Assembly: GCF_009914755.1 (NCBI RefSeq)
Contig: NC_060932.1
Origin: the human T2T-CHM13v2.0 reference genome, Homo sapiens
Length of the DNA: 64,000 nt
Direction: 5' to 3' (one strand)
Position 1 is the stretch's first letter. Each line of letters begins with the position of its first letter. This document shows positions 1 through 21,265 of the stretch, in pieces. Both the position numbers and the translations under genes were made by a program. The notes under the pieces were generated by a model that was given only the letters and a program-made list of their open reading frames with translations, was not told the DNA's origin and did no database searches.

Positions 1-577
1 CCATCAAGGACAGATTTTTTTTAATAAAAGCAGTTTGGGGATGATCTGATCTAAAATATGTTGCCTAGAATGTTCACAATTTACTTTAGAAAACATTAAA
101 GCATTAATGTTTCAGAAAGCTCTAACCAGGTTTTACATTAAAAAAAAAAAAAAAAAAGTCTGACTTACAATTCAAACTCTGGCCTGCAGGAATTTACCAT
201 GGGAGGTCCTGGGGGCACTTCTATGGGAACAGGCAATCAGCTCCCAGCATATCCAGAAAATAAGGGAATCCTCATCACCCTGCCCAGAGCGTCAAGTCAA
301 AGGACAACAACGTGGGTTTGACAAGGGACCCCCAATCAAGTCACAAAAGGGGTCTAAATTTCATACAAGATCTTTGGTCATTCCAGTGTCTTGCTGGGGG
401 TATATTAAAAACAATAGTTAATGATTCTCCCAAGCAGTGGCCTGGAGACCCCAACTTCCTTTGCGATATGGGGATAATTGTATTTTTTCTGCCTTGCTGT
501 ACTGGGGAAGTTGTTGTAGAAAGAAAGTGAGATATCAAATGTAGAAACATTCTATAGATAGATTGACGGACACATAG

Positions 578-800
578 ATGGAACGAAGGGAGACAGGAAG
601 GAAGGAAAGAAGGAACGAAGGGAGACAGGAAGGAAGGAAAGAAGGAAGGAAGGGAGGAAGGAAGGAAGGAAGGAAGAAAGGAAGGAAGGGAGGGAGGAAG
701 GAGGAAGGAAGAAAGGGTACGTGGTTGCATGAATGGATTGATGGATGAATGGGTGGTTGTTTGCATAAATGCATAGATGGATAAATGGATAGATAGACAC
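578..800. repeat. (GAAG)n purine tract followed by degenerate (ATGG)n
   Basis: Visible tetranucleotide arrays; they explain the PSFL/SIHP low-complexity ORFs. Confidence 0.9.
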
Positions 801-2058
801 ACATAATGGAATAAGTGTTATGTGCCAAATATCATTTGAAGGAGGGAAGTAACTAGCTAAAACTTGAGAAAACATGTTCATGATCTCCCAATTTTTTAAA
901 GAAAGTTTCTGGAAGAAATAGGAATTTAAATCGTTTTCAGATGAAGCAACTTTGAGTACTGAGAGGGGCAGATACTGGCAGCACAGGTAGGGGTGTTGCC
1001 AGGGTCTGGATGAATGTAGTCTGTGCCTGTGAGCAGGAGTACATTCAGGATGGTGGGTATGTTTTACCTGTTGAAGGGTGGAGCCATGTATCTAGAATGC
1101 CCCTGTATTATCTGAAAGCTAAGTCAGACAATAGGAACTCTGGAGTCTTCAAAAGAGGTGTCAGACACAATTGAGCTACAAGAGAATTACTTCTGAATAA
1201 GTTTCTAATGCTCAACATACTTTTAATTACTTGTTCCAGACTTTTCTATTCTAAGGAATGTAAACTCCATCAAAACAGGGATGGTGAATTTTCCATTTAT
1301 CCCTAAATCTGCAACACCGAAGGTATCATGCAGAGTGGGAACTCACTCAACATTTTTTAAAGGACTTCACATTTTATTCTTTTGTCAAAGCTTCCAATTC
1401 TTCCTGCTGTCCCTGGACCCCGGACTGACCCAGGGTTCTTTCCTCTTAGATGAAGGCATTCCTGGTAGGATTCTTTCTTTACCGGATTCCTATCTTCCTC
1501 CCTCCCTTGAACCTCTTCCTCAACGCTGGCCTGTTTCAGATGTCCTACTGCTGTTTCTGAATCAATAGCTCTGGATGGATAGCAAGCTCAGGGTTTTTCT
1601 TGCTATTTTTACTTGCTCGCCCTGCACAAGAGAATATCCCCTAGACTGGACCAAGGACAACTCCCGGTCAAGTTTCTCAACAAGAACTATTAAAAGACAC
1701 TTAACCCCTCCACTCATAAAAATGTGAAATATCACTTGGTCTTTACAACTGGGGCTACTGTGGTGGATAATCGCATTTCTGAAGTGAATGGCATAGGTTA
1801 TAATGAGCAATTGGGGAAAAAAAGAAACATTAACCATGATTCATACCACAAATTGAAGGTAGGACAAGTAGTTCTTGAACATCCTGATTAGATTTTAATC
1901 TTGTTTTAGCAGCAGCAGCTCAAGTTAATGTTTGCTCGGTGCAATAACATCATGTGGATTGACACATGGGTAATTATGCTATTTATCTTCTTACGAAACT
2001 CTCTCAACTGGGGAGCTGTGATTATTCAGTGCTTGAGAAGGCTGGGGACAAAAAGTCA

Positions 2059-2352
<294 letters not shown>

Positions 2353-3408
2353 AAAAGGGCAAGAAGTCCTTGACTAATGAGGTTGGTGCGAAGCGGGAAA
2401 TACTTGTTCTACCAGTGGGAAAGGTGGCTTGTTTCTCCAGGCTTTTACACCCAGCACACTCTGCCTCTCCAGCTCTCTGCTCTTCAGACAACCTGGATTA
2501 ATGAATCTCTCCATCTCACATTCATTTTCCATCTCAAAGGAGCCTCCTAATTGGCTTCAGGTCTCTTCCCCTCCACTCCAGCCTCCTAGCTGTTTTTAGA
2601 ATGACCTGCTACCCTGTTTTTATTCTATGTTTAAATCTCTCTCAATTATGTCCTTACTCATTAACTTCTCTTAATCTCTCTCTCATTTACTCATTAGATC
2701 ACTTCCTAACATGTAGTAAGTGACTACTTTTCTAAGACACAAAGCTAATCACATTACTCACTTGCTTAAAAAAACCTTTTACTGGCTTTAACCTATAGAA
2801 TAATAGCCTCATAACAGTCTATCCAAATGCTCCATCATCAGCTGCCATTTACCGTTCAAAAGGTCTTTGCTGTCACACTTCGCAAGAAACCTAAACTCTG
2901 TGCACCTAACCTTCTTTATTTTGTTTGATACGTGAACCAAGGCCCTAATGACTGGCAAGGCCTACAAAGATGGGAAACCCTCACTAGTAAGAGTGACTCA
3001 GAGGAACAGATGACAACCCTTGGGAAAGAGGACAAAAGCAAGACTAGAAAGCTGAAGGAAATGAATTTGCACTCCTAGGTCCTAGATTTGAATATGTATA
3101 TTTGGATATATGTATATCTGAATAGGTACAAGTATAGATATAGATATCTACACAGAGATATATAGATATAGAGAGAGATAGATACATAGATACATATCCA
3201 TCCCTACATCCCTTTCTGCTCTTCTTCCCAGTAAAACCCATTAAGGGAGTTCTTTGTATTAATTTCTCTACACTCTCACTTTTGATGTGTCCCCAGGTGA
3301 CTAAATTAGGCCTCACATCTATCATGACTCTGAAATTTCCTTATTAACTTTATGAGTGGTTTCCTGCTGGTTGAAGTCAAGGACCAATTCTCTGTTCTCC
3401 TACCAAAC

Positions 3409-3961
3409 TGTGATGGTGAATATTGAGTGTCAACTTGATTGGATTGAAGGATGCAAAGTGTTCTTCCTGGGTGTGTCTGTGAGGATGTTGCCAAAGGAGA
3501 TTAACATTTGAGTCAGTGGATTGGGAAAGACAGACCCATCCTCAGATTGGGTAGGCACCATCTAATAAGCTGCCAGAGTGACCAGAATAAAAGCAGGCAT
3601 GAGGACTGTGGAAAGACTAGACTGGCTGGGTCTTCTGGCCTCCATCTTTCTCCTGTGCTGGATACTCCTGCCCTCAAACATCAGACTCCCAGTTCTTCAG
3701 CTTTTGGACTCTTGGACCTACACCAGTGATTTGCCAGGGGCTCTCAGGCCTTTGGTCACAGACTGAAGGTTGCACTGTCAGCTTCCCTGTTTTGGAGGTT
3801 TTGGGACTCAGACTGACTTCCTTGCTCCTCAGCTTGCAGATGGCCTATTGTGGGACTTCACCTTGTGATCACGTGAGTCAATACTCCTTAACAAACTCCC
3901 TTTCATATATACATCTATCCTGTTAGTCCTGTCTGTCTAGAGAACCCCGAATAATAATACA
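3409..3961. mobile_element. MLT2A/B-like ERVL solo LTR
   Basis: Starts tgtgatggtgaatattgagtgtcaacttgattggattgaagg, ends ctagagaacc...aataca, degenerate 5-bp TSD caaac/ctaac. Confidence 0.88.
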
Positions 3962-4210
3962 CTAACCGCTCAGTAATAGTTGACATGTCTGACTCTTCAC
4001 TGCTTTATGAAAAACTCTATTCTATGGGCTTGCTTGACACCAACCAAGCTGGCTTCGGCCTATTTTACTTGAATATTTTTCAAGCTTTTCTTAGATTCTT
4101 CCTCCTCTAGGACCTCTAGGAGTTGCAATGGACTGGGGCTCAGCTCTCTTTTCTGAAGAGTGAATGCATAAGGAGAAGAGATTGTATCCATTGCCAGATG
4201 GTACATGCCC

Positions 4211-4555
4211 TGTCTCTTAGTCCTTTTGGGCTGTTATAACAAACCACCATAGACTGGATGGCTTATATACAACATAAATTCATTTCTTGTAGCTCTGAAG
4301 CCTGGGAAGTTCAAGATAATGGGGCAGGAAGATTTGGTGTCTGGGAAGGGCCATCTCTCACTGTAACCTCATATGGAGGAGGGAGGCAAGGTTGCTCTCT
4401 GGGGCCTCTTTCACCAGGGCACTAAATGCCATTCATGAGGCCTCTATCCTCATGTGCTAATCACCTTCCAGGGGCCTCACCTCCAAATATACTCATGTTG
4501 AGGACTAGGATTCAACATAAGAATTTGCGGGGAACCCCAAATCCAGACCATCACA
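4211..4555. mobile_element. MaLR LTR (MLT1A-like)
   Basis: tcttagtcc..gggctgttataacaaa...catagactggatggcttat...caacataagaatttg. Confidence 0.8.
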
Positions 4556-4886
4556 CCATCTCTATGCTAAAAACTCTGAAATTTACATGGTTAGCTGGGT
4601 CTTCTCTCTGAACTCCAGATATGTATTCCCAATGCTCAGGCCAAAATATAGAAGAACCCCTCTCCTGCCCCACAACATGCATCAGTAATGCTCTTCAGTG
4701 GCATCTCCAAAACCTTCCCCAAATAGCTCATTTTACCACCTGCACAGTCACCACCTTGGTCCCAGTCCTTCCTCCTCACCTGGACTCAGGCAGCCACCTC
4801 CCACCTGGCCCCCACACCTGCCAATTTGCTCCCCTAAATCTGCCAGAGGAATACTTTTGAAAAACTTTTGCTGGTGTTTCATTTTT

Positions 4887-5245
4887 TTCTTAGTCCATTT
4901 GGGCTGCTATAACAAAACATCATAAAGTGGGTGGCTTATGAACAACAGAAATTTATATCTCACAGTTCTGGAGCCTTGGAAGTCCAAGATCAAGGTGCCG
5001 GCAGATGCGGTGTTTGGCAAGGGCCTCTTTCTTTATAAAGGGATCTGTTCTCACTGCATCCTAATATGGAGGAAGGGAAAACAAGCTCCCTTGGGCTTCT
5101 TTTATAAGGGCACTAATCCCATTCATGAGGGCTCCATGCTTATAAGCCAATCACCTCCACAGCTGCCACCTCTTAATATCATCACTTTGGGGTTTTGGAT
5201 TTCAGCATATGAATTGTAGGGGGACACAATTATTTCGACCATGTA
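4887..5245. mobile_element. MaLR LTR (MLT1A-like)
   Basis: tcttagtccatttgggctgctataacaaaa...tctcacagttctggag..aagtccaagatcaaggtgccggcagat. Confidence 0.85.
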
Positions 5246-6349
5246 ATTACTCCTAGAATAAAATCCAAGCCCCTGACTCCATCCCTCACTGGCCTTCCCA
5301 ACCAGTTTCCTCTCTCTTTCTAATCTCAGCTGTCTTTATTTTGCCCCACAGATGCTCTCTTCAGTACCCTTCAAACAAGGCATGATGCTTCCTACCACAG
5401 GAAATTTGCATATACTGTTTCTTTGTTTTAAATCCCCTCTCTTCCCCAACAGACTTGTGCTTGTTAGTTTCTTTCTCAACATCCAAGTTTCAGCTCAAAC
5501 GTAATCTTCTCAAAGATTTTCCCAAACTCCCTAAGACAAGTACTCTATCATAATAACATACTCTGTCTTACTAGTAGCCCTTTTCAATATCTATGTATTG
5601 GCTGTGTGTCTGTGTGTCTTTAAGAGTTATACCGCCTATCTCTGCTAGAATAAAACTTTCTTGAAAGGAGCCATAATTATTTTTTAACTATTGTATCTCT
5701 CATGCCTAGAACAGTGGCCTGTTGTAGAAATAAATTCCTCTCTAGTAAGTTATGGATCATGTGGTTGCTGATAGAGACACAGCCCAAAGGCAGCCCTCCT
5801 GGATGTAACCCACAAAGCCAGTTGAAAAGCTCACAGCTATGTGTTCAATTGCATCCTCCAATACATGAATAAGTGCATCGTCTTTAAGTGCTATCATCAA
5901 GCACCCATACACTGTAAAATAAGGGGGAAAAAACTCCAATAGTAACCTACTGCCTGGAGGGAAAAGACATCCTTGCCTCAGTTTGAGTTCTCTGCTTACT
6001 GCTGTGTGAAAACTGGGTCAGGTCGTTTTTCTTCAACAGGTATCTCCTCTGAGCCTCAGGGTCATCATTTGTAAAATGTGGATAATAAGCTCACCTATCA
6101 GAGACCTTGACTCTAAAGATTATATATTTTTATGTGGTTAAGGCACAGTAGTGGCCATCTCTCACTTTCACTTATCTGAAAAACAAGAGCTTTCTCCCTT
6201 TGATTGTGAACTGGTAGGGTCCAGGGCACTGACCCTGCAAGGAAGACAGGAGCTCCATCCCCTCCTACCAACTCCCCTTTTCCCAGAAGGCCCTTCCAGG
6301 AGAATGTAAGGCGGCAGGAATCAGCAAAGAGTAGGCTTCAAAACAGGCT

Positions 6350-6752
6350 TGTTCTAGTCTGTTTGCACAGCTTTACTAGAATTGCCTGAGTCTGGGATTT
6401 TATAAAGAGCAGAAGTTTATTTCTCACATTTCTGGAGGCTGAGGAGTCTAAGGTCTAGGCTCAGGCAGGTTCTGTGTCTGATGAGGGCTGCTCTCAGCCT
6501 CCAAGATGATGCCTGGTACACTGCATCTTCTGGAGGAAGGAACTCTGTGTCCCCACATGGCAGAAAGTAGAAGGGCAAAAAGGTGACAGCTCTGTCAATC
6601 AAATTCTTTCAAAGGGCACTTAATCCCATTCATAAGGGCAGAGGCCACATAAATCTATAGGCTCCCAAAGGCCACATCTCCTAATACTCTTGCATTGTGG
6701 ATTACATTACAACATGAATTTTAGAGGGTACAAAAACATTCAAACTGTAGCA
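6350..6752. mobile_element. MaLR LTR (MLT1A/MSTD-like)
   Basis: tttatttctcacatttctggaggctgaggagtctaagg...caacatgaattttagaggg...acattcaaactgtagca. Confidence 0.8.
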
Positions 6753-9700
6753 AAGCTTACCGATCTCCTGCCCCAATCTCTCCTCCTAACTTCCACCATC
6801 CACTATGGAAGGAAACTGCTCTTCTGGCATGCCTCTTAGGGAGGAGAAGAGGTGGTTCACTGAGCCCACTTGACCATGGTCCTCCAATACCTGAAGGACT
6901 GCAAGTAAAGGAACAGCTATGCTAGGAAGGCTTCCCGGTCTGCGGAGCCAGTCAGATGAGTGTTAAACACTTGCTCCCGCATGCCTGGGCTTCCTCTTCT
7001 ATAAAATCCACATGTGGCCCTAGCAGGGACAATGGAAAGGACAGGAGGGGCAGTCATTTAATGAATTACTGGTCACACACACCCACGGATGGCAGAGAGG
7101 TGTGCAACACAGACCTTCACATGGAGCTGGAGTCATGTCACCCAGTCCAGAGAGACCACTTGGCTGCTTCAGCTCCTCTCTCCATCTGGGCTGTTAGGTC
7201 CTTTATGCAGCAATAAAGTCTTGTGGTTCTCTTGGGCCTCACTCAGTGCTGAGCAGAAAAACAGTGCTCACTGAATAAGTGCTAATTGACCCACAGAGGG
7301 AAAGAAGAAGTGAGTGACTCCTTCCTGACTTAACTTTTTTTTTTTCTGCTTAAAACCAATCTACACCACCTTAGGGAAATGGCCCAGTTTCTGAAAGGCA
7401 GTGCTGGTAACATAATATTCTTGGAGAGAAGGCAGTGCTTTTCCCAGGTGAGATGACCTCTCTGGACCTGCAGCCAGGAGGCCTGCATTCCATTCCTGCT
7501 CTTCCACTCAGCACGGGCTTCTTCCTAGACATGTCGTTCCACCTCTTCAGTGTCTACAGTGTGGAAAGGTTCATCATAAAATTGGCCTCACTATGTGGTT
7601 GAAGGAGTCTGATAAAACACATTTGTGAAAGATGCTAGCAGAGTATTGGGCATACATAGGAACTCAGAAAAGGTTGGTTGTGGAAGGTTTCAGGCAATCT
7701 AAGGTTATTAGAAAGTGCTGAGGCTTGGAGAGGACTCTCTGGCATGGGCTTTCAGGATAAGCATCCTGGAGGCAGGAGGGAAGGAAGACTGAGAGGGGAA
7801 GACCAGAGAAAGGACACTGGTCCCCCCAAGGTGGGAAATGAGCAAACTCACACTGAGGCAGTGGCTGGGGATGAACGGGGGAGAAGCATGGGAGGGGCTG
7901 AAGCAGTGGAATAAAGAAGTCACCCATCTCAGCACCTGAGAAGTTTCCACATTTCCAAAGGGACCAATATGTCCAGGGATGCTCATTCCCACGTGGACAC
8001 CAGCTGGTTGGTGACAGTGTGGGGCTGGGCGGTGCTTTAAAGCCGGATGAGCTTCAGGGGCTGCAGGGCAGCTGATTGAGCAGAACTTAGAGTGTGAACA
8101 CCTCCAGCCTTGCAGGTCACTTGAATTTTTCATCTCTCTGTCCTCTCTTTGTCACTCAATAATGTAGTCAAATGGTGCCTGGAACTGTTTTCTTCTCTTG
8201 CGGGTTCTGAAGAGCCCTCTGCAATGAATGGTGAGGGCCCAGCTTCCTGGCTTGGGAGGGCAGTGTGATTGAAGGATCTTGAGTAGAGGGCCGAGCTCTG
8301 GCATCAGAACGTGGAGGCAGATCTCCAGCGGCTTCCCAGGGTCTTTCTCCACTCAGACCTGGATGGCTTGGGTGGCTTTGTTCACACGAAAAGGCCAGTC
8401 TGATGCCCAGTCTCACAAGGTGATGTTTTGTGATGGGCCTACTCTGACCTTCAGGGATTAACAATCCACCGGGCAGATAAGAAAGGATTCTGAAAACAGA
8501 GAAGCACAGATCCCAAGCAGGACGAGGGGTACAGCCTGTGTGGGTGTCAGAGCCCCAGCAGGGTGAGCAAGATGTCCACACAGAGGGGCGGGACTGGCCA
8601 AAGAGCTCAGAGTCTGTGCTGGGTAAGGATGCCTGCTTGGAGGTGTCAGAGCCCAGTCAAGGTGAGAAAAACACAGTGTGGAGGCAGAGCCATGCAGAAA
8701 GAGAGGGGAGAGGGCAGCCTGCTCAGGATGACACGGCCTCAGTGGGTGAGAATGACTTCCGGGAAGGGCCACAGGGGTTGGAGGTGGCCTGGGGGGTGTC
8801 AGAGCCTGGATCAGGTCGGGGGTATAACAGCAGTGGCAATGGGAGTGTACAGGGAATTGGTGAAATAAATAAAGATATTAGGACAATGGAGCCCATTTCT
8901 CATTGTTGAAAGACAGAGTTACAAATGTGGAAAGAGAAAACTAGAAGGAACCTGGTGGTTTTTGGCTGGAGTTGGAGGTATTGATTTAAAGCCATTTTCC
9001 ATCTATAGATAGATAAAAAATAAATATAGATGCAATATGGGATCTCAAGGAAGGATTCATCACTTTTTGTTTCATGCTAAAATGAAACAATTCCACTCAC
9101 ATGGATTTCCAGGTGGAACGAGGATTGGAAAGTGACTTCTCTGATTTACTTAACTGGAGCCAGAGCTTGGGGCTATCCTCTTGGTGGGCAGAGACCACTC
9201 ACCCTGGACTCTCCTACACCACCTCTCACACCCTCTGAGCAATCAGAAGCTCTTGTCGTCTCCATCTACTCCAATCCCACCCATAGCCCCTTCCCCACCT
9301 CCCCTCTTCTCTTTGCCAGGCTCCTTGAGTGGGTTTCCATCATCTTCTACTCCTCCTGTCCTCACTGCTGGATGGAGGGGACGGGAAGCCCTTTGGATCT
9401 TGAGGGTGGAGGAATGGAAGCATGAAAGAGCGGTTTAGCTTGAGGACTGGAGATCCAAAGAGCAGTGAGCCCCTATACCCCCTGAGTCCAGCTTACCAGC
9501 AGGCTGCCTGTGCCTTATCTAAGATGGGGCACAGGGGAGGAAAGGCAAGTGACTGATCCTTCCCTGCCTGTTGTTATGTCGCTGAAAGCTACCTGGCCAC
9601 AGGAGGCTCTGGGAACTGTAAGGAAAAGGGGTCATAGAACAGCTCTCTCAGCTCAATGCTAATAATGCAAATGATGATGATAATGGCGATGCTGCTGATA

Positions 9701-11365
9701 ATGCCAGCTTTTTTTTAATACTTCCTACATGTCAGATATTGAAATACCTTTCATAGAATAATTGATTTAAACTTCCCTCCAAACTTATAAAGAAGGCACT
9801 ATTTATGTTCCCATTAAGAGAGGGGGAAATCAACATGTCGAGATGCTTTTGAAACTTGTCCAAAGCATACGCTGGAAAGTGGGAGAGGAGGGCCCATGTC
9901 CTTCCAAGTCAGGAGTCGGACCCTTACTGTAAATGTGCTTTCCGTCTGACTGCATTGGGGCAGCTCCCACAGCAGTGGTAGAGCTGAGTCGACCCTCAGG
10001 ACACGTGGGAGCCAGAGAGTCAGGGCAGAGGGTGCAGTAGTGGCCTGGGAGGATGTCCTGGCCAGAAGGGCAACTTTGCAGGGAATGGTAGGGCACTCAG
10101 AGAACTGAAGATCCTTGAGTGTGTCTATGAAGAAGGACTTGGAGGTGTAATTCATAGAGCTGGGCCTGAAGAGGCGGCTGAGGACGGACCATGAGTGCCT
10201 GTCAGGGCATTCAGAGACCAGATGGCCACAGGCATGGAAGGAGACTCACTGTCTACAGCTTCCAAGTCTTGGCGTAGGCATGCTCAGAAAATGCACAGCA
10301 GGAAACCACGGTATTGCTGTAATCTAAAGTTTGGAGGAACTCACCTCCTTAGGTGGGCATCAGAGGAAAGGTGGCTAAAATCAACCCCAGAGAGGGAGGA
10401 AGCCCCATCTCTGTCACTCAGTCCCATGGGGTATATGTGCAAGATCATCAATTGCTTGAATGTTCCAGACACAGAGAATGTGCCTGTTAATGAGCACCCT
10501 TAAGAGGCTTCCTAACCAGAGGTCCCAGAAAAATGGATGCTAAATGGAGAAAACCCGTGAAAAGCATGCACTCAATCACACAAAGAGCTCCTGTTTTTAC
10601 CAGAGGGCTAAGAAACTCATCTAACGCTGCTAACAGACTATCTTAGACTTAAAAATAAGTCATTAAATGACGAATCGAGTAGCTTCCGGCTAATAAGGAA
10701 TGCATTCTGAATCTCATCTAGTTCTGCAGTGAAGGAATGAGCCATAGGGCAGGCCACGTATGGGGAGTGAAACACTCAGGGCTTCCCTCTCAGGAGAAAA
10801 CCTCCAGCCAGGAAATTCCTCCCACCTGCTGAGTAAGTGGCTGGGCCTCTGCAGCTGAGGCCCCAAGAACCAAAGGCAGGTGAGGCTTGGGCTTCCAGGA
10901 CACAGGAATGAAAACAGGACCACGGAAGCTGAACGATCCATCTGTAGGTTGCCACCTTTCCTTTCCAGGGGTCAGCAGACTAGAAGGTCCAGGGTTTTCT
11001 GAGCACCCTTACAGCTGGCAGCAGTTCAGGGAGGCTTCTCAAGGCCTCCGCACAGGGCCCCAGCTCAGGGTACAGAGACTGCAGGCAGCTGTTAGGGAGG
11101 ATGAGATGCTAGGGCAGCTCCTGAAGGTGGTTGGACCCCAGGTAGAGATGAGTGAGATTGTGCAGGTGGACGCTCTCCCCTGGGAGTCTAGAGAGACTCC
11201 ACTGGGAGCCAGTTCTGTCCCTGGGGCTCAGTCTTAGCTCCTGCAGATGCTTTAGTTGAAGTAGCCCCTGAGGCAGGTATGCTGGGCACCCTCCAGCATA
11301 GGACCTTGGAGAGGAATGGAAGGGGCGCCTTATGAACTGCCTCCCTCTTGCACTAGGGTGTGCCA

Positions 11366-11665
11366 TTTTATTAATAGTATTATTATTTTAAGACAGGGTC
11401 TTGCTCTGTCATCCAGGCTGGAGTGCAGTGGCATGATCATAGCTCACTCACCAGACCTACCTCCTAGACTCAAGTGATCCTCCCACCTCAGCCTCCCTAG
11501 TAGCTGGGACCCACAGCCATGTACCACTAGGCCATTTTGATTTTTTGTAGACATGGGATCTCACTATGTTGCTCAGGCTGGACCAAAACTCCTAGGCTTA
11601 AACAATCCTCTCACTTCAGCCTCCCAAAGTGCTAGGATTACAAGTGTGAGCCACTGAGCCTGGCC
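11366..11665 (-). mobile_element. AluJ
   Basis: agacagggtcttgctctgtcatccaggctggagtgcagtggcatgatcatagctcac... with AluJ diagnostic features. Confidence 0.9.
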
Positions 11666-14600
11666 TAGGCAAGTCATATCAGACACCCCTTCTCTTCTCT
11701 GGGCTTCATCTCCCTGTCCCTGCAGTAAGGAGGTGGGAAGAAATCATCCCTCAGAGCCTCTAATATTTGTCTAACTCCGTGGCTTCTCAGCCCAAGTAAT
11801 CTGGTCTGCTAGCTGGGTTAACTTGTACGTTGCCTGGTGCTATCTCAGAGTTAACCCAGCCCAGCCCTGGGGACAGTCTGGTTTTCCTGCCAAAACAGGC
11901 TGCCTCTGGCACTTCACCAGCCCACTCCAGCAGGACAGGGATTAGGGGTGAGACAAGTGAAGAGCTCGCCTGTGGGGGAGAAGTATGGGTGAGCCACAAA
12001 TATTCTCAAGATGAATATGTCAATGCAGTATTTTTTAAAAATCAGAATCAATGCAAAAAATCCATGATGAACAAAATACCAAATTTTAAGTAAAGGATCA
12101 GTGTTGCCAGTTTCTTTCTTTGCCTTCAGCACTAACCTGGCTTCACAGAGCACCCTTTATTGATCCTGTCTGGACTTAAAATTGTGTCCTTCACAGCATC
12201 TCCGATAAACCTCACTAAAACCCTTGGGGGTCAGGATTACGTCTCCCTGCTTGCAGGCAGAGAAGTCAGGTGCCTTCTTCTGGGGACTAGTAATTGACTG
12301 GACACTGGTTCTGTCTGATCCCTTACCCCACACTGTTCTTTCCAGTGGTGTCCGTCTAAGGGTGTTCATAGCCCACTGGTGGACATGGATAGACACATTT
12401 TTCAGTGTAATCATCTTATTTTCATTTTATCATCTGATTTAAAAATACAGATGTTATGCCTCATGAAGAAGTCAAATATAAATTAAGGCAAAAATCAAGG
12501 TGCTGAATTTAAAAAATGGTCAACATGTTTCACGGGCATGGCAGCCATCTGCAGTCTGAGGGCACCTTCTTGCTGTTTGATCTTGGCCAAGTGGCTTTCC
12601 CTTTCTGAACCTTTAATTGTTTCAACTACAGAATTGTCTCTAAGCCACCCTACAGCTTCAGTATTCTTTAGCTTGGGACTTATTTCTCTGTTGTCTCTCT
12701 TAATTCCTTTCAGGGAACTGTGGCTACTTAGGGGTCCCAGCAGGCTGGTCCTGGGTATGGTCTGTCCCCGACCTGAGGTCTGGCTGCTCCTGGTTGTCAC
12801 CAGAACAGTGGCAGACTTGGTAATACAAGAGGCTCAGCCCCATCCAGGACCTGGGATGATGACAGCCCAGCCTGTGTCTTCCCATCCCTCGTCTCAATTC
12901 CAGTGGATAGAGGTTAGTACAAGTCCCCTTGGAGCTTGGCCGGGGCTGGGCCTCTGTCCTCCTCATCTCCTGGTGTGTTATCTTGCAAGCAGCAGCAATT
13001 CCGGATTGGCATTCCAGTGGCACCTGCTCTTGAACTCATTTCACCTGGAGCTCTGGGCAACCCCACCATCAAGAAGAAAGAGAGCACCCAGGCTCTTCTT
13101 CCATCTCTGCACTCCCCTGCTACTGGATCTGGGGAGCATCGACTTTGAGTCTTGAATGCTTCATCTTTCAAACGCAGAAGTATCAATTCCTGCCTCAGAT
13201 GCTGGCCACGAGGGCCACATGAAACAGCGTTCCTACAGTGTCTAGGCCAATGTCTGCCCTGTAGAAGATGATTCATCATTGTCACTTCTCTTTTCTCCCC
13301 ACCTCACTCCACCCCTGCTGCTACCCAACTGTGACCTAAAAGATTCTCTTTGACACAAGCCACGTGACCTGTTCCTTTACCATGTTTCTCTTAGTAACCA
13401 CCTGGTACCCCGCATGCTGTTCTCATTATCCTCCCGAAAAACGAAGCCCCATTCCTCAGCTTTAAACTATGAATCCCCAGAAGCTAGTGCAGTTTCCCTA
13501 GGCTGACCCCATTTAAGGGTGCGTCCTGAGCCCCTGCCGTGCCTGGAACATTCTCTGCTTGAAGACCTCTCGTGGCGGGGGCTCAGGTCCTTCATGGCTG
13601 TGCTCACTGTCTCTGGGCCTTTCTGACCAAGTGTTTTCATGAATGCCACCCTGAGAACCACCATCTCCTAACTTTACTCATCCACTCCTTTCTTGGACTC
13701 TCCCTTCAGGTGTCCACATTCAGCTGTGAGGCATCTGACGTTCGCTTTTCCAAGAGGAATAGTTTTTTGTGTGTCATGGGCTAAGTCCACCCAGCATTCT
13801 CCAATGTACCCCCGTGGGCTTAAATTCCTCCTTGTGGCCCTCAGAAACCCTTGTTGTGCTATGGCAGGCAGGGAGTTGAGTGGGGTTGTGTGTCCTGATT
13901 CCTTCTGTGGGATCAAATTCCTTAAATGTATCCCTTCTGAGAGAGGGTGCATTTTGCCTTCTGCAGGCCTGCTGCATGTCCTCAAAGGATCATCTCAACA
14001 GGTTCCCGTGAAAATCAGACAACTCCTATGCCCTGAAAACAAGATTCTGAAAAACAGAACCGAAGGGTCCCCAGGGTGGAGTCCCACAGAAGGAAGAGCT
14101 CCTCATTTCCTGAATAAGATGAGGAGAGGTCCCAAATGCGGTTCAGCCTCACCCTACATCCAGTTGTGTGGGGTGGTTGGGTGCGAGAGGCCAAGCCTCA
14201 GAGACTTCATATTTCATAGCAGGATTTGACTCCTTGCTGCTGTGAAGCCTGGGGGCGGCCCTTCTCCCCTGCCGCTAAGTCCTTCCCTGTGAAGATGGGG
14301 CGAAAAGCACCTGCTCCCCAGGACTGTGGTGAGAGAAAGTGTGTGAGGCCCCAGGCACTCAGTGGGCATGCTCACTGGCAGATGATAGTATCTTTATTTC
14401 TACTGTGGAGTCTTCTATAATACCTATAAATTTTATTTATAGCTCTAATCAAATTCAATTGCCAGATTCTGTTCCATGCATGTCTGTCTCTGTATGTGTT
14501 GCCCAGAAACACTCTTTGGGAGTTAATTATAGACCAGTCTCCTAGACTGCGAGCTCCTTGAGAATGGGCCTGTATCCTGTTCACTGTCGGATCCTCAGCA

Positions 14601-15018
14601 CCTGACCCGTGTTTGCTCAGAGTGAAGGACTGTCGTTTGCCCACTATGCCCCACCCACTCGGACCATGGAGAATAGCCCCGCTCTGAGTGGCAGGGAGCT
14701 CTGTCATCCCTGCCAACTTCTCTATTCTTCACTGACGACAGGGGGCATTCCAGAAGGGAACCAAAGTGAGACCAGGCCAAACAACCTCACAAATGTCTCC
14801 ATGGCAACAGCTTGTCCTGCCACACACAAAGGATCCTGGCTAACTATGCAGCCAAAGGTCAAGTTGTCAGTGTGAGGCCTCTTAGCCAAGCATGCCTCTC
14901 AGAACAAGGCTAACCTTCCTCATTCTCACTCCTTTTTTCCCAAACATCAGGATTGTAACTAGTGAAGACAATAACCAAGAACACCTTAGGAGGAATGCTT
15001 GTAGAAATGGGGAACTAG

Positions 15019-15650
15019 AACACTTTTACACTGTTGGTGGGAGTATAGATTAGTTCAACCATTGTGGAAGACAGTGTGGCAATTCCTCAAGGATCTAGAA
15101 GTAGAAATACCATTTGACCCAGCAATCCCATTACTGGGTATATACCCAAAGGATTATAAATCATGCTACTATAAAGACACATGCACACGTATGTTTATTG
15201 TGGCACTATTCACAATAGCAAAGACTTGGAACTGACCCAAATGTCCATCAATGATAGACTGGATTAGGAAAACGTGGCACATATACACCATGGAATACTA
15301 CACAGCCATAAAAAAGGATGAGTTCATGTCCTTTGTAGGGACATGGATGAAGCTGGAAACCATCATTCTGAGCAAACTATCGCAAGGACAGAAAACCAAA
15401 CACCACATGTTCTCACTCATAGGTGGGAACTGAACAATGAGAACACTTGGACACAGGGCAGGGAACATCACACACCAATGCCTGTCGTGGGGTTGGGGGA
15501 GGGGGGAGGGATGGCATTAAGAGAAATACCTAATGTGAATGACGAGTTAATGGGTGCAGCAAACCAACATGGCACATGTATACATACATAACAAACCTGC
15601 ACGTTGTGCACATGTACCCTAGAACTTAAAGAATAATAATAATAATAAAA
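15019..15650 (+). mobile_element. L1PA 3' fragment (ORF2 end plus 3' UTR) with 16-bp TSD
   Basis: ORF2 tail WIRKTWHIYTMEYY..MFSLIGGN, (AAT)n tail, TSD agaaatggggaactag (15003-15018) / agaaatggggaattag (15651-15666). Confidence 0.95.
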
Positions 15651-17489
15651 AGAAATGGGGAATTAGTTGGTCTGGAAATGTCTGTGTCTGGTATTACTTC
15701 ATTGTCTGTGCCTTTTCAGGCCTCAGTATCTGGAGAACAGATACATCACTTACCCCATGTTCCCTCTCTTCCGAAATGAACTTTCAAGCCAGCTTCGCAG
15801 ATAGCCCACTATCTTCAACCACATACACTACCCTCATAACCCTAGCTTCACAAAATAGCACCATCAAAGCAACCTGAAGACAAATGTTCAAAATTGGTAA
15901 GAAAAGAAAAGGAAGAGAAACAAAATTATGCCCCTAAAATAGCGTGTCCTCAACCACGTCAAAGATGCAACCAGAAATACACCCTCCCTCCTTTTAATGA
16001 TTTAATGAACAGCTTCTCCTTTGCCCTGGAGAACATTTCTGAAAAACACAGGTTAGTGTCAGCTCTCTTCACCTCACCAGGAGAGTCCAGGAGGGACATA
16101 GACAAAGGTGGCCCAGAGTGAGGCTGCTGTCTGCTGGCTTAGAGCATGCTTCTGTGTCCTGTGTCACAGTGTAGGGAGGTGGGGCATTCTCCAGGGAGTG
16201 GGAGACGGGAGATTTGTGCATGACTTTGGGCAAATTGCCTCACCCCTCTGACAGTTTCCTAATGAATGGAAGGGCAAAGATCTATGCCTGGCCCATCACA
16301 GTTGTGTTGCAAGGAACAAATGATAAAGCTTAAAGGAACATGCTTTGAAAAATAGGTAAGCACCCACTGGTTTAAAAAGAAGTGCTCCTCTCCTTGAATT
16401 AAAGTAAACAAATGAGCAAAGTTGACTCAAGTGTTCTTAAAGGGTGGCAAAGAGACTCTTGTAAAGGATGGTTTAGTTTGCCCTACTTTTAAAAAATTTA
16501 ATCCTCACCCAAATCCTGTGAATTAATGTTGTCAATTTTAGTTAATGGAGGAGGAAACTGAGGTTACTTGGTTATTCCTTTGATGTCTCCAGTTTTGAGC
16601 AACTGGAGTGCACTGGGCGGCAAAGGGATGGGCTGCAACACTAAAGCCAAGCAGCTGGGCAGTTCTTAGGGATCAGAGAGAGGCTAATCAACAAATGAAC
16701 GGGGGTCACCCAGCACTGCAGCCTGGCTGCACTCAAGCTGGGGAAGTTCTTCCAAGTCCTAGACCACAGAAGCCAGGGCTGCCGGTCACCAACCTGCCCC
16801 CAACAAGAAAGCATGCAGGTGCCCTGCGCAGAAGGCAAAGTGGTCCCTGAGCCAAGGCCAATATGGCAGAATTCTACTCATTCCCCTTCCTCCAGCTGGA
16901 AGAGGAGTGAGCTTGTATGACCAACCCTATATGGGAGAAACCCCATGTGGGCCCAGGTATCCCAAAACACACCTCGGAGGTCTTTGGGAAACCCCTGGTC
17001 TCATCCATTATTTATTGAATATCTGCTGTGTATTTATTGAACATCTACTGAACCAGGTGCTGAGTTTCTCCAAAACACAGAATCAACTCTTTCTGTACCT
17101 ACCCTATGGCATTCTAAGAAAGAAGGGGTTTGCAGAGATGGACCCTCAGGTTGTAGCAGTTGGCAGAAAGCAAGTAGGAAGGGCTGCCTAGAAAGTGCTG
17201 GTCACTCCAGGTTTGAGCCCAACTCCTTGGGCCACTTGAGTGAATTATCTGTTTCTTCCCAACCCAGGAAAGCATCTTTCCAAGCTCACAGTAGTGAGGA
17301 TGAAGCATCTCATCTTTGAAGATCTCAAAATCTGTGGGGACATCTGAGTCCTGTTCTGGGTTTACCTAAACACTGAGCCCCAAGGTTTGGGTTGAAATAT
17401 ATGGGACTCAGGAAAACTGAGCAGCAGGAGGCCTCAATGGTGCTTAGCCTGGGAGGGAGACAGCAAAGGAAGTGTGGGTAGGGCAGAGA

Positions 17490-17630
17490 TCTCTAAAATC
17501 TGCTGGGGAGACTTCAAACACTGATTATTCCATACCATCTCCCAGAGACCCTGATTCAGTGGTTCTGGAATAGTTCCCTAGAATCTATACTGTTATAAAT
17601 AAAGTTCCCCTATGAATTTTTACCATCAGG
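17490..17630. mobile_element. MER5A-like hAT-Charlie relic
   Basis: cccagagaccctgattcagtggttctggaatagttccctagaatctat...aagttcccc. Confidence 0.55.
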
Positions 17631-18159
17631 CATATCAAGGGACTCACCAGAGAAGTGGTATGAACTCTTGTATCCAAATACTGGGCTCCACACTTAGAAT
17701 TTTGGGAAAATCACTCTTTCTTTCTGAGCCTTGTTTTTCCCATTTGTGGGGGAAAAATAAGGATTTGGATTACACCAGATATTCCCAGGTGTGGGAATTA
17801 CGAACTGCTAATTACAAAATAATAATTATTGGGAACTATATAAGGGAGGTGAGCCAGATCTTTATTTTGTCAAGTAAGGATATAAAAAACAAAGAAGTAA
17901 ATATTACTCTACACACACACACACATACACACACACACCCCACATTCTCTTTCTCTCACTATTATTTCTCACAGTATGAGTCATTTTAAACCCTAAAAAT
18001 TAGAGAGATTCCAGTCTCAGAATGAAAAGCCATCCTTTCAATGCAACACATTTGGGTTGGTTTTCTGTCCAGCTCACATTGTTGACCTCTGGTCCCACCT
18101 GGCAGGTGAACACCTCACCCTGTACCAGTAATTGGGAACTTCAGGCCTGTGACTGCCAG

Positions 18160-19270
18160 GTTTCTGACAAAGAACTTTTACCTAAAATATACAGAAAACT
18201 CTTGAGACTCAAAAATTAAAATCAGACAACTTAATTTTTTAAAATGGGCAAAACATCTGAACATAAACTTCACCAAAGAAGATATTCAAGTGGAAAATAA
18301 GCATATGAAAATATGCTGGATATCATGTTATTAGGAGATTGCTAATGGAAGCAACAATGAGATACCACTACGCACCTATTAGAATGACCAAAATCCCAAA
18401 CACTAACAGCACATAATGCAGGTGAGATGGTGGAGCAACAGAAACTCACTGCTGGTAGGAATGGAAAAGGATGCAGCTATTTGGAAGACCAATTTGGCAG
18501 TTTCTTACAAAACTAAACATGTTCTTACCATGCGATCTAGCAATTGTGCTTCTTGGTATTTACCCAAAGGAGTTGAATAATCACATCCACACAAAACCCT
18601 GCACAGATATGTTTATAGCAGCTTTATTCATAACTGCCAAATCTTGGAAGCAACCAAGATGCCCTTCAGTAGGTAAATGGATAAATTCTGAAACTTCCAG
18701 GCAATGGGATATTATTCAGCACTAAAAAAAAGGGGGTTATTAAGCCAAGAAAAAGCCACAGAGGAATCTAAATGCAAAATACTAAGTGAAAGAAGCTAAA
18801 TTGAAAAGGCTGTATGATACCAACTAGATATTTTGGAAATGACAAAACTATGGAGACAATTTTAAAAAACCAGCAGTTTCCACAGGTTAGGAGAGAAGAG
18901 GAGTATGAAGAGGCAGACAACAGAGACTTTTTAGGGCAGTGAAACTCTTCTGTATGATCTTATAATGGTGGATAATGGCATATCAGTATCCATTAGTCCA
19001 AACCCATAAAGTGTGCAACAGCAAGAGTGAACCCTCATGTCAACTGTGGATGTTGGGTGATAGTGACGTGTCAATGTAGATTCATCAACTGTAACAAACG
19101 TACCGCTAGGGTGTGGGATTTGGAAGGTGGGTGGGTGGGGGAGGCTGTGTGTGTATGTGGGTGGTTGGGGGTGGGCAGGGAGCACATGGAAATCTGTACC
19201 TTCCTCTTAATTTTGCTGTGAATCTAAAACTGCTCTAAAACTTAGTCTATTTCATACAACAACAATAAAA
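18160..19270 (+). mobile_element. Old L1M (L1MC/L1MB-like) 3' fragment
   Basis: ORF2 remnant MFIAALFITAKSWKQPRCPSVGKWIN; 3' end gctgtgaatctaaaactgctctaaaa. Confidence 0.85.
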
Positions 19271-20247
19271 ATGAAATAGAATAGTAAATGTTCGATCAAG
19301 CACACTTGATCAGGTAGATATTTTATTTCAAAACCCTTGCTTTATATATGTATGCATGTACTGAGTCACTAAGAAATTACACCTCTTACTGTGGGTCATG
19401 GTCAGAAAATGTTAAAAGTCACTGGATGAGAGTATTTCTGAGGTCCCTGAGATAGTTTCTTCAAATGAAAAAGGGTATTAGAGTAATACCCCTGCATCTT
19501 CAATGGTTGTGAAAACCAACTGAGATGGTAAACGTGAGAAAGACTGAGAGGGAGGCTGTCTCATTCTGCACCAACAGGAATGGCTTCTTTTGGACCCCTG
19601 ACACCCATCCAGCCCCAGAATCAGCACCAGCTGACTGAACACAAGGAATGGGTATCAGATTTCATTTTTAAATCATTGCAATAATACTTCTTTACCCATG
19701 GAAACATCAAACTTCTTGAAATGTTTATGTTCCCAGTTTCTAAATCAATTAGAGGCATCCAGAACAGGGGATCACACAAAGGAAGTTCTTGATAAACATC
19801 TACTGCTTTAGTCTGTAAGTGGCTAACAGCTTGGGTGAATGGACAAATTAATGAATGGATGAATCAATGGATCGATCAGTCGGTCCACCAGTCAATCTGT
19901 CAGTCAAGAACAAATGCAGGAAGAGTATTGGTGACTCATTTGGCCTCTAGATGCAGTTTAACAGGAAAGGTTCTGCTAAAACCTTCCAACTTGCTTCACT
20001 CCCTCCCCACTGTGATCCTGCATAAATGTGCACATCTAAATGTCTGCTTCCATATGAAGGGAGGCTAATGAACGGCCCTGGACTAGCTCAGTCTGGCACA
20101 CACATTCACTCCCTCGTTCATTCACCAGGTGGGCTGAACATGTGGACTGTGTGCTACGGTTCTCACAAGAAAAAGATACATCCCAGTGCTTGAGGAGTTC
20201 ACATTCAGGTGGAAGTCGAATACAAGAAATCAATCATCAAGAGGAAC

Positions 20248-21265
20248 TCAAGAGAAGGAAACTTGGATTTATTGAGCACCTGTTCAGGCAGGGCATGTCG
20301 CATACACACATGCACTTGATGCCATTTATTTCAGAGACAGAGCCGCCTTGGAGATACAAATTTCCCAGCTCTGGTCAGTGCCCTGGCCAACTGCCCATCA
20401 TTAGGGAAACACAAGTGGATGGTCACCACATCCACTTGTTTTATAATTAATATAATTGAAACCAACAAGAGGAACTTGAAGGGGCCTTACACAGTTTAGA
20501 AGACAAATTAACACTCAAGGGCTGCCTCTTCAACATAGGTTTTCCCATCTTTGGCCAAGACATATGATCCCACAAAGCCATTGCCAACCCACAGACATTA
20601 TTTCACTTCTGTGAGCTTAGAGCACTGAGGTGGCTGGAGTGCACCCTGAGGGCTGATTCTGTGTTTTCCAAATGCACGTCCCGTCGGGAGGTGGGAACAT
20701 TCCTCATGGTTGCAAATTCTTTCTCTTTCTGCTTCTTTACTCTCTCTGGACAGTGGTGGTGTTTGTATTATTTCTCCTGGGTGATCTCCGGGCATGACTG
20801 AGAATGAAGCCCATTGGCTCATTTTCTTAAAGTTTTTCTTTTGAAGAAAGAGGTAAATTTGCCAAGTGTCTGGTCAGGGTTTTGTAGCACCAAGAGTTTC
20901 CTTAAAATGGGCAGTTACGCGTCAGATGGGGGCTGTCAGAAGAATGAAGAAACAATCTCCTGCCCCACGAATCAAGTTTTCCCAACTTTAAAGGAGTGGA
21001 AAAGAACTCACAAAGCATCAGCATATGAAATAATAATAATAATTAACAACAACAATAATATTAATAATAATCTGACCGACCGGCAGCGTCTGTTGGATTT
21101 AATAATTTTGAGGTCTCTCAAGAAAATAAAACAAAAAGCAAACGATAAAAGAAAGAAAAAAAAAAGGAACACATGGCTGAAGTCTTTCAAGACCTCTGGC
21201 TTCCCACTGGGCTCTGAGTTCAAGTTTCAGAAATCCACTGCAGTCTTCTGGCTTTCCAGAGTCCT
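20248..21265 (-). other. COL22A1: COL22A1 3' UTR (about 1 kb; end approximate)
   Basis: Sequence after the stop has no recognisable interspersed repeat and contains a U/A-rich tract near 21030-21070. AATAAA signals on the minus strand lie at 20325-20330 and 20268-20273. The end is inferred about 20 nt past the distal signal. Confidence 0.7.
20268..20273 (-). terminator. Polyadenylation signal AATAAA (distal; a second one at 20325-20330)
   Basis: tttatt on the + strand about 1 kb downstream of the stop codon. Confidence 0.7.

What the first reader, a model, noticed from the sequence alone, without database searches (positions are those of the whole stretch)
169..11304. Fossil of a lost PIDD1-like gene (LRR-ZU5-ZU5-UPA) downstream of COL22A1
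Seen: eight or so decayed, exon-like segments on the minus strand, separated by repeat-filled intervals, many with AG/GT borders and all with stops or frameshifts. Established: PIDD1, the PIDDosome scaffold that activates caspase-2, has the order LRR-ZU5-ZU5-UPA-death domain. Inference: most segments match PIDD1 (recalled from memory) in that order over about 10 kb. Similarity is low and introns are present, so this looks like an ancient paralog inactivated in place (a unitary or unprocessed pseudogene), not a retrocopy. I do not recall an annotated gene here. If an intact ortholog exists in other vertebrates, it would be a second PIDD-like scaffold that humans have lost.
Basis: partly seen in the sequence, partly recalled or inferred. 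Interest (0 to 1): 0.92.

Follow-up and report, generated by a model that had tools for sequence, protein, structure and literature searches.

The report
Decayed LRR exon, not PIDD1-like
Just downstream of COL22A1 lies one short, broken remnant of a leucine-rich-repeat exon from an unidentified dead gene, but nothing here supports the proposed fossil of a second PIDD1-like gene.

Summary
One of the reported "eight or so" segments is real; the PIDD1-like reading is not supported.

**The real segment.** On the minus strand, 11013-11304 is a 292-nt exon-like stretch.
- It has a polypyrimidine tract plus AG on one side and GTAAGG on the other.
- One frame carries a single TAG and reads 3-4 leucine-rich repeats.
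- One unit (11112-11165) is a perfect canonical LRR. About 3e-4 such matches are expected per 64 kb, and none occurs in 200 kb of control DNA.
- The DNA is single-copy and has no recognisable human parent gene.

**The PIDD1 claim.**
- Pfam found no ZU5, UPA, PIDD-peptidase or Death domain in 273 minus-strand frames.
- Genome-wide model scans, searches of solved structures and a 24-species PIDD1 profile also found none. That profile recovers every exon of the true PIDD1 locus.
- A spliced, frameshift-tolerant chaining test puts the region in the middle of 48 control segments. The same test still detects PIDD1 after 40% simulated decay.
- The relic matches the generic LRR consensus, not PIDD1's own repeats.

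**Limit.** The PIDD1 profile barely sees even intact ankyrin ZU5 exons, so a very old, very diverged paralog cannot be excluded.

**Verdict.** This is an unannotated pseudogenic LRR exon of unknown parentage, of low interest.

The parts
11013..11304 (-). Exon-like remnant (292 nt = 1 base + 97 codons) encoding about 3-4 leucine-rich repeats, with one in-frame stop
   Evidence: Frame read. Pfam LRR_4 E 1e-4 (22.9 bits) and LRR_8 E 0.0019 on the read-through. PIDD1-profile LRR positions 118-167 match at 11.9 bits, the top hit of the whole window in six frames. LRRC58, LRRD1 and LIC10831 are the best PDB hits.
11112..11165 (-). Perfect canonical LRR unit LHNLTHLYLGSNHLQELP
   Evidence: The only regex match in six frames of the 64-kb window, with 0 matches in 200 kb of control DNA and 3.2e-4 expected per 64 kb. 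It scores 27.6 bits with the generic LRR-unit profile, against a control maximum of 7.6.
11109..11111 (-). In-frame TAG stop that disables the LRR frame
11305..11325 (-). Acceptor-like site: polypyrimidine tract (11308-11325) followed by AG (11305-11306)
   Evidence: Sequence read. No splice-site scoring tool was available.
11007..11012 (-). Donor-like GTAAGG directly after the last full codon of the LRR frame
   Evidence: Sequence read
11366..11670 (-). Alu element (sense on the minus strand, A-rich tail at 11366-11390) inserted about 60 nt upstream of the acceptor-like site
   Evidence: Alu-type translations and matches to Alus in the PIDD1 locus. Tail read. 11530-11669 is masked in the supplied table.

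Best explanation
Window 11013-11304 (minus strand) is a dead, non-functional remnant of one internal exon of a multi-exon gene. That gene encoded cytoplasmic-type 23-residue leucine-rich repeats.

- Shown: the remnant keeps splice-like borders and the LRR register, and it carries a stop.
- Shown: it has no recognisable parent or paralog elsewhere in the human genome.
- Shown: the remaining roughly 11 kb of the reported interval has no detectable coding ancestry.
- Inferred: the rest of the gene has been deleted, overwritten by repeats, or decayed beyond recognition.
- Inferred: the relic is an unprocessed pseudogene fragment, either inactivated in place or an old partial duplicate.

Its parent family cannot be named from LRRs alone, and nothing ties it to PIDD1.
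For: **LRR identity**
- Three or four units lie in one frame with the correct spacing.
- The canonical unit is expected 3.2e-4 times per 64 kb and about 15 times per genome. It occurs once in the window and 0 times in 200 kb of control DNA.
- An L..LP sits in the correct register just before it (chance 5.8e-4), and an L..L..L.L lies upstream (chance 1.7e-3 over 12 registers).
- Pfam LRR_4 gives E 1e-4.
- The PIDD1-profile LRR hit scores 11.9 bits. The next best hit in the window is 3.0 bits. The maximum in 200 kb of control DNA is 7.3 bits, or 2.5 bits in the LRR part of the profile.
- The read-through tile scores 28.9 bits with the generic LRR-unit profile, against 5.7 for the best of the other tiles among 10662.
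- 263 library proteins match at E<=1e-3, and all 40 examined are LRR proteins.

**Exon-like borders**.

**Single copy, no human paralog**: the DNA matches only itself, and the best other human protein-level match has E 0.03.

**Nothing else recognisable**.
Against: - Every Pfam LRR score is below the curated cut-off (22.9 against 27 bits). In the whole-frame context the hit drops to E 4.1.
- The large E-values (best 7e-31) and add up many repeat-to-repeat stretches. The best single stretch is only 20.3 bits, i-E 0.0049.
- The generic LRR-unit profile was built from proteins that the relic itself had pulled out, using a regex the relic matches. Its high score therefore largely restates the regex match.
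- With a profile of PIDD1's own units the tile is unremarkable (6.4 bits, rank 3 of 10662).
- My register arguments were chosen after seeing the sequence.
- No intact relative was found in a library that does hold vertebrates: 406 candidates, 0 at E<=0.01.
- I could not test conservation, so the exon status rests on sequence features alone.
Confidence: 0.7

Rival explanations
1. One reading: the whole of 169-11304 is an in-place fossil of an ancient PIDD1 paralog (LRR-ZU5-ZU5-UPA, death domain beyond the window start).
For: - An LRR exon remnant of the right class sits at the 5' end of the interval, on the right strand, with intron-type borders.
- PIDD1's LRR exon is among the sequences it matches: tblastn E 0.005 in a 14-kb database and 11.9 bits with the profile.
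- The negative tests have limited reach. When PIDD1's own LRR exon is decayed to about 12 bits, a median of only 2 of 10 other exons (range 0-4) stay individually visible.
- The PIDD1 profile gives only 7-9 bits on intact ZU5 exons of 3 of 8 other human ZU5 loci and 2.5 bits or less on the other 5.
- Pfam UPA does not find PIDD1's own UPA.
Against: - 0 of 182 frames (1-14000) and 0 of 91 frames (13998-20300) hit ZU5, UPA, Peptidase_S68 or Death.
- No candidate for these four models lies in or near the window, even at E<=10 genome-wide.
- No ankyrin, UNC5 or PIDD chain is hit by any whole frame at E<=10.
- The PIDD1 profile finds nothing outside the LRR segment in the window, and nothing in the 8-kb flank where a death domain should lie.
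- The chaining test on profile columns 312-913 gives 66.5 and 65.5 against a control median of 64.5 and maximum of 80.6 (19 and 22 of 48 controls score higher). PIDD1 decayed by 30-40% beats all controls in 8 of 8 runs.
- The plus strand of the same DNA scores higher than the minus strand.
- The relic resembles consensus LRRs, not PIDD1's.
- 0 of 150 best library relatives have a PIDD1-like C-terminal part.
- I found no paper describing a second PIDD-like gene (listings only).
Confidence: 0.04
2. Chance: leucine-rich translation of CTG/CAG-rich non-coding DNA that happens to fit the LRR consensus, with fortuitous AG and GT nearby.
For: - About 15 exact matches to the canonical unit are expected by chance in a whole human genome read in six frames. 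A scan of every window will therefore meet some.
- All Pfam scores are below the gathering cut-off.
- 20 of 182 frames gave some unrelated Pfam hit at E<=1, so weak hits are common.
- No homolog-specific match was found.
Against: - The flanking units keep the LRR register in the same frame. The joint chance is about 2.5e-15 per position, or about 1.5e-5 per genome (my multiplication of the figures, chosen after the fact).
- The LRR frame has 1 stop, against 4-5 in the other two frames.
- Splice-like borders bracket exactly the LRR-reading stretch.
Confidence: 0.12
3. Remnant of a ROCO-type (LRR-Roc-COR, such as MFHAS1-like) or other specific LRR gene family, not of an unidentifiable one.
For: 25 of the 40 best library hits are LRR-Roc proteins, and 24 of those also have COR-A.
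Against: - These proteins rank first because their many near-consensus repeats add up (up to 16 stretches per protein).
- No Roc, COR or Ras signal appears in any of the 273 frames scanned.
Confidence: 0.05

Closest known systems
PIDD1 (LRR-ZU5-ZU5-UPA-death domain; locus confirmed at G000:C11 about 850.7-856.0 kb)
   Same: Cytoplasmic 23-residue LRRs of the LxxLxxLxLxxNxLxxLP type, encoded in a multi-exon gene. The relic aligns to PIDD1 profile positions 118-167.
   Different: No ZU5, UPA, HFS-peptidase or death-domain remnant, and no colinear signal. The putative exon is 97 codons, whereas PIDD1's main LRR exon covers profile positions 102-240. The relic is not specifically like PIDD1's repeats.
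Other cytoplasmic LRR proteins hit in the Protein Data Bank: LRRC58, LRRD1, SHOC2, Leptospira LIC10831
   Same: Same repeat class. LRRC58 gives the longest single alignment (query 6-92, 20.3 bits) and LRRD1 gives E 1.6e-5.
   Different: Similarity is at consensus level only. The best human genomic match outside the locus has E 0.03, so none of these is the parent.
Unprocessed or unitary pseudogenes of the human genome
   Same: A disabling stop, retained intron-type borders, no poly-A or intronless structure, a later Alu insertion nearby, and no living copy in the genome.
   Different: Only one exon is recognisable. An intact ortholog elsewhere, which defines a unitary pseudogene, could not be sought with these tools.

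Membership tests
PIDD1-like (LRR-ZU5-ZU5-UPA-DD) | N-terminal array of cytoplasmic-type LRRs | tested here: met
   About 3-4 units at 11013-11304. They are generic and not PIDD1-specific.
PIDD1-like (LRR-ZU5-ZU5-UPA-DD) | Two ZU5 domains downstream of the LRRs | tested here: not met
   PF00791 hits 0 of 182 frames at E<=1. None of the 24 genome-wide matches at E<=10 lies in the window. No ankyrin or UNC5 chain is hit. The PIDD1 profile finds nothing. Power is limited for a decayed, diverged paralog.
PIDD1-like (LRR-ZU5-ZU5-UPA-DD) | HFS autoprocessing region (Pfam Peptidase_S68) | tested here: not met
   PF10461 finds PIDD1 itself (44.9 bits). None of its 25 matches at E<=10 is near the window, and it hits 0 of 182 frames.
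PIDD1-like (LRR-ZU5-ZU5-UPA-DD) | UPA domain | tested here: inconclusive
   There is no PF17217 hit, but that model also misses PIDD1's own UPA. The PIDD1 profile, which does cover it, finds nothing.
PIDD1-like (LRR-ZU5-ZU5-UPA-DD) | C-terminal death domain | tested here: not met
   None of the 41 PF00531 matches at E<=10 lies in or near the window. The PIDD1 profile gives at most 1.6 bits in the 8 kb before the window start.
PIDD1-like (LRR-ZU5-ZU5-UPA-DD) | Segments colinear with PIDD1 over about 10 kb | tested here: not met
   The spliced, frameshift-tolerant chain score is at control level: 19-22 of 48 controls score higher at J=10 and 30-33 of 48 at J=14. Decayed PIDD1 is detected in 8 of 8 runs up to 40% change.
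Leucine-rich repeat superfamily | Tandem units fitting LxxLxxLxLxxNxLxxLP with a period of about 23 residues | tested here: met
   One perfect unit plus flanking partial units in register.
Leucine-rich repeat superfamily | Score above Pfam's curated cut-off | tested here: not met
   LRR_4 scores 22.9 bits and LRR_8 18.4 bits, against a cut-off of 27 for both.
Unitary (in-place) pseudogene | Disabling mutation and retained exon-intron borders | tested here: met
   TAG at 11109-11111, with AG and GTAAGG borders. This holds for one exon only.
Unitary (in-place) pseudogene | No functional copy in the same genome | tested here: met
   The DNA matches only itself, and the best other protein-level match has E 0.03. 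Only the best candidates are scored by that tool.
Unitary (in-place) pseudogene | Intact ortholog at the syntenic position in another species | not testable with these tools
   No vertebrate genomes other than this one are held. Passages of a cattle GWAS paper list only COL22A1 and FAM135B for the interval, which is weak evidence because only named genes are given.

The most novel reading that the evidence does not exclude
The LRR exon is the last legible piece of a second PIDD-like scaffold gene (LRR-ZU5-ZU5-UPA-DD) that early vertebrates had 3' of COL22A1 and that the human lineage lost. Its ZU5, UPA and DD exons would have diverged and decayed below what any profile used here can see. A milder version is more likely, at about 0.35: an in-place fossil of some other multi-exon LRR gene that survives intact in other vertebrates.
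Probability: 0.04. Interest if true: 0.75.

Novelty: new member of a known kind. Interest (0 to 1): 0.17.

Why it matters
As it stands, this is one more unannotated pseudogenic exon fragment in an intergenic stretch. It has some use for annotation and as a marker of an old gene loss or partial duplication between FAM135B and COL22A1, but it is not surprising. It would matter only if comparative genomics showed an intact gene at this position in other vertebrates. That would date a lineage-specific loss of an LRR gene. In the unlikely case that the gene proved PIDD-like, it would reveal a lost second caspase-2-type scaffold.

Tried and rejected
I then used stop-to-stop frames and stops read as X, and neither found anything beyond LRR.
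2. tblastn of every open frame of the PIDD1 locus against the window gave only Alu-to-Alu matches plus the LRR match.
3. Whole-frame searches of solved structures gave Alu-exon hits (gamma-tubulin complex component 2 isoform, about 2100-2340). They also gave weak Fab heavy-chain hits (E 0.02) in another frame over 11024-11371, which I take as chance.
4. The exhaustive library search returned LRR proteins ranked by how many consensus repeats they have, so it could not name a parent gene.
5. The word-based search for intact relatives found none.
6. A first chaining run with a 6-bit jump penalty was too permissive, with random DNA scoring about 200, and I replaced it with stricter settings.
7. 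A weak LRR-like piece at 12249-12272 (5.4 bits) is within the control range and was dropped.
8. Literature searches found no second PIDD-like gene and no pseudogene described between FAM135B and COL22A1. "PIDD2" hits were control-engineering papers (listings; passages).
9. Earlier findings of this scan were not open to the session.
10. More control DNA could not be fetched, so controls are limited to 200 kb plus the rest of the window.
11. The plus strand was not scanned against Pfam.
Full report
**What was claimed.** It read them as a fossil of a PIDD1-like gene with the order LRR-ZU5-ZU5-UPA, lying 3' of COL22A1. The supplied RefSeq table shows no gene in 1-20247.

**The observation.**
- I listed stop-to-stop frames and scanned all 182 minus-strand frames of at least 25 aa in 1-14000 against Pfam (123, 59; counted).
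- Twenty of the 182 gave some hit at E<=1. Nineteen of these were unrelated families with E>=0.025, about what chance predicts.
- One frame, 11112-11387, hit five LRR families, the best being LRR_8 at E 0.0021. No frame hit ZU5, UPA, Peptidase_S68 or Death.
- Whole frames with stops read as X added nothing.
- Read in three frames and as DNA, the LRR frame has clear structure:
  - One frame then runs 97 codons, with a single TAG (11109-11111), to 11013. It ends on a codon boundary directly before GTAAGG (11007-11012).
  - The frame reads ...LPQGLLQLKHLQELRLS..SLSRLPGESVHLHNLTHLYLGSNHLQELP*HLILPNSCLQSLYPELG..., about 3-4 LRR units.
  - The other two frames have 4-5 stops over the same stretch.
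  - An Alu (about 11366-11670) sits 60 nt upstream.
- So the 5'-most segment of the report exists as described.

**Is the LRR signal more than chance?**
- Individual scores are modest. The read-through segment gives LRR_4 E 1e-4 at 22.9 bits, below the 27-bit cut-off. The best single alignment to a solved structure is LRRC58 at 20.3 bits.
- The striking E-values of the PDB search (7.6e-6) and of the exhaustive library search add up many repeat-to-repeat stretches. The library search gave 263 proteins at E<=1e-3, with a best of 7e-31. I do not take these at face value.
- Three controls are more telling:
  1. A 913-position profile built from 24 mammalian PIDD1 proteins scores the segment at 11.9 bits. 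This is the top hit among 3174 six-frame fragments of the whole window, and the next best is 3.0 bits. In 200 kb of arbitrary human DNA (10761 fragments) the maximum is 7.3 bits, and 2.5 bits within the LRR part of the profile.
  2. The unit LHNLTHLYLGSNHLQELP fits the canonical pattern exactly. From control residue frequencies this is expected 3.2e-4 times per 64 kb and about 15 times per genome. It occurs once in the window and 0 times in the controls.
  3. The residues before it keep the LRR register (L..LP, chance 5.8e-4), and an L..L..L.L lies upstream (chance 1.7e-3). Multiplied together these make a chance origin unlikely even genome-wide, although I chose the features after seeing the sequence.
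- A generic LRR-unit profile puts the read-through tile at 28.9 bits, against 5.7 for the best other tile among 10662. That profile came from proteins the relic had selected, so it mostly restates point 2.
- I put the reality of the LRR relic at about 85%.

**Is it PIDD1-like?** Every test aimed at the rest of the architecture was negative.
- Genome-wide scans with the ZU5, UPA, Peptidase_S68 and Death models recover the known genes, including PIDD1 itself for ZU5, S68 and Death. They list no candidate in or near the window even at E<=10.
- No whole frame hits an ankyrin, UNC5 or PIDD chain at E<=10.
- tblastn with all open frames of the PIDD1 locus gives only Alu matches and the LRR match.
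- The PIDD1 profile recovers 13 exons of the real locus at iE 1e-20 to 1e-73. It finds nothing but the LRR segment in the window, nothing in the 8 kb before the window where a death domain should lie (maximum 1.6 bits), and nothing upstream. Pfam also finds nothing in 91 frames of 13998-20300.

**The colinearity test.**
- The claim is about weak matches in the right order, so I wrote a profile-to-DNA chaining alignment that allows introns, frameshifts and stops. I restricted it to profile columns 312-913 (ZU5 to DD).
- With a 10-bit jump penalty, the minus strand of 1-10000 scores 66.5 and that of 1001-11000 scores 65.5.
- The 48 control strand-segments have a median of 64.5 and a maximum of 80.6, and 19 and 22 of them score higher than the target.
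- The plus strand of the same DNA scores 76.3 and 78.1.
- With a 14-bit penalty, 33 and 30 of 48 controls score higher.
- The same test beats every control in 8 of 8 runs for a PIDD1 locus carrying 30-40% simulated neutral change. At 45% it does so in 6 of 8 runs (J=10) and 3 of 8 runs (J=14).

**Is the LRR itself PIDD1-like?** With a profile of PIDD1's own units the tile ranks 3rd of 10662 at 6.4 bits. Of the 40 best library relatives, 25 are LRR-Roc proteins and 0 carry ZU5, UPA or Death. None of the 150 has a PIDD1-like C-terminal part.

**Limits of the negatives.**
- When PIDD1's LRR exon is decayed to about 12 bits (35% change), a median of only 2 of its 10 other exons (range 0-4) stay individually visible.
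- The mammalian PIDD1 profile gives just 7.4-9.4 bits on intact ZU5 exons at three other human ZU5 loci. I take these to be the ankyrin genes, a label recalled from their positions. It gives 2.5 bits or less at the five remaining loci.
- Pfam UPA misses PIDD1's own UPA.
- A paralog that split from PIDD1 early in vertebrate history and then decayed could therefore escape all these tests. What can be said is that no positive evidence exists beyond LRRs, which many unrelated families share.

**What it is.**
- The DNA is single-copy.
- No other human locus resembles the peptide better than E 0.03.
- No intact relative turned up in a library that demonstrably holds vertebrate proteins: 406 word-sharing candidates, 0 at E<=0.01, with vertebrates shown to be present.
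- The best reading is an unprocessed pseudogene fragment: one internal exon of a dead multi-exon LRR gene, either inactivated in place or an old partial duplicate. The rest of the gene has been deleted, overwritten or decayed. It has no function.

**Literature.**
- Searches for a PIDD paralog, for "PIDD1-like", "PIDD-like", "LRDD-like" and "PIDD2", and for a pseudogene between FAM135B and COL22A1 found nothing relevant (listings only).
- Passages of one cattle GWAS paper (PMC12075139) list only COL22A1 and FAM135B in the interval.
- I read no supplements. I could not see GENCODE, Dfam or conservation tracks, any of which may already describe this element.

**Verdict.** This is a new member of a known kind and of low interest.

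Noticed in passing
window 586-719 (and the frames 341-817 and 552-1091, minus strand): A GGAA/TTCC-type simple repeat produces long, proline/serine/leucine/phenylalanine-rich open frames (158 and 179 aa) that look like coding sequence but are artefacts of the repeat.
   Followed up: no
window 12487-13155, plus strand: This is the longest open frame of the region (222 aa, stop to stop). It is leucine/serine/proline-rich and lies just upstream of the relic on the opposite strand. The plus strand was not scanned against Pfam.
   Followed up: no
window 11024-11371, minus strand, the frame read from 13300: A frame overlapping the LRR relic gives weak matches (E 0.02-0.6) to about 40 antibody Fab heavy chains over about 115 residues. 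I took this as chance, amplified by the many near-identical chains in the databank.
   Followed up: partly
window about 2081-2363: The translated Alu matches residues 206-245 of an isoform of gamma-tubulin complex component 2 in solved structures (E 9e-4). The databank protein evidently contains an exonised Alu, which is a source of false protein hits when non-coding human DNA is searched.
   Followed up: no
G000:C11 about 851.7-852.6 kb (L009:5747-6607, minus strand): Pfam's UPA model (PF17217) finds the UNC5-type loci genome-wide but not PIDD1's own UPA region. The PIDD1 profile covers that region strongly. Pfam-based absence of UPA therefore says nothing about PIDD-like genes.
   Followed up: partly
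window 1-11000, plus versus minus strand: In the chaining test the plus strand of the target scored higher than the minus strand and near the top of the controls (2-3 of 48 higher at J=10). This is probably a composition effect of the relatively G+C-rich stretch, and it disappears at J=14.
   Followed up: partly
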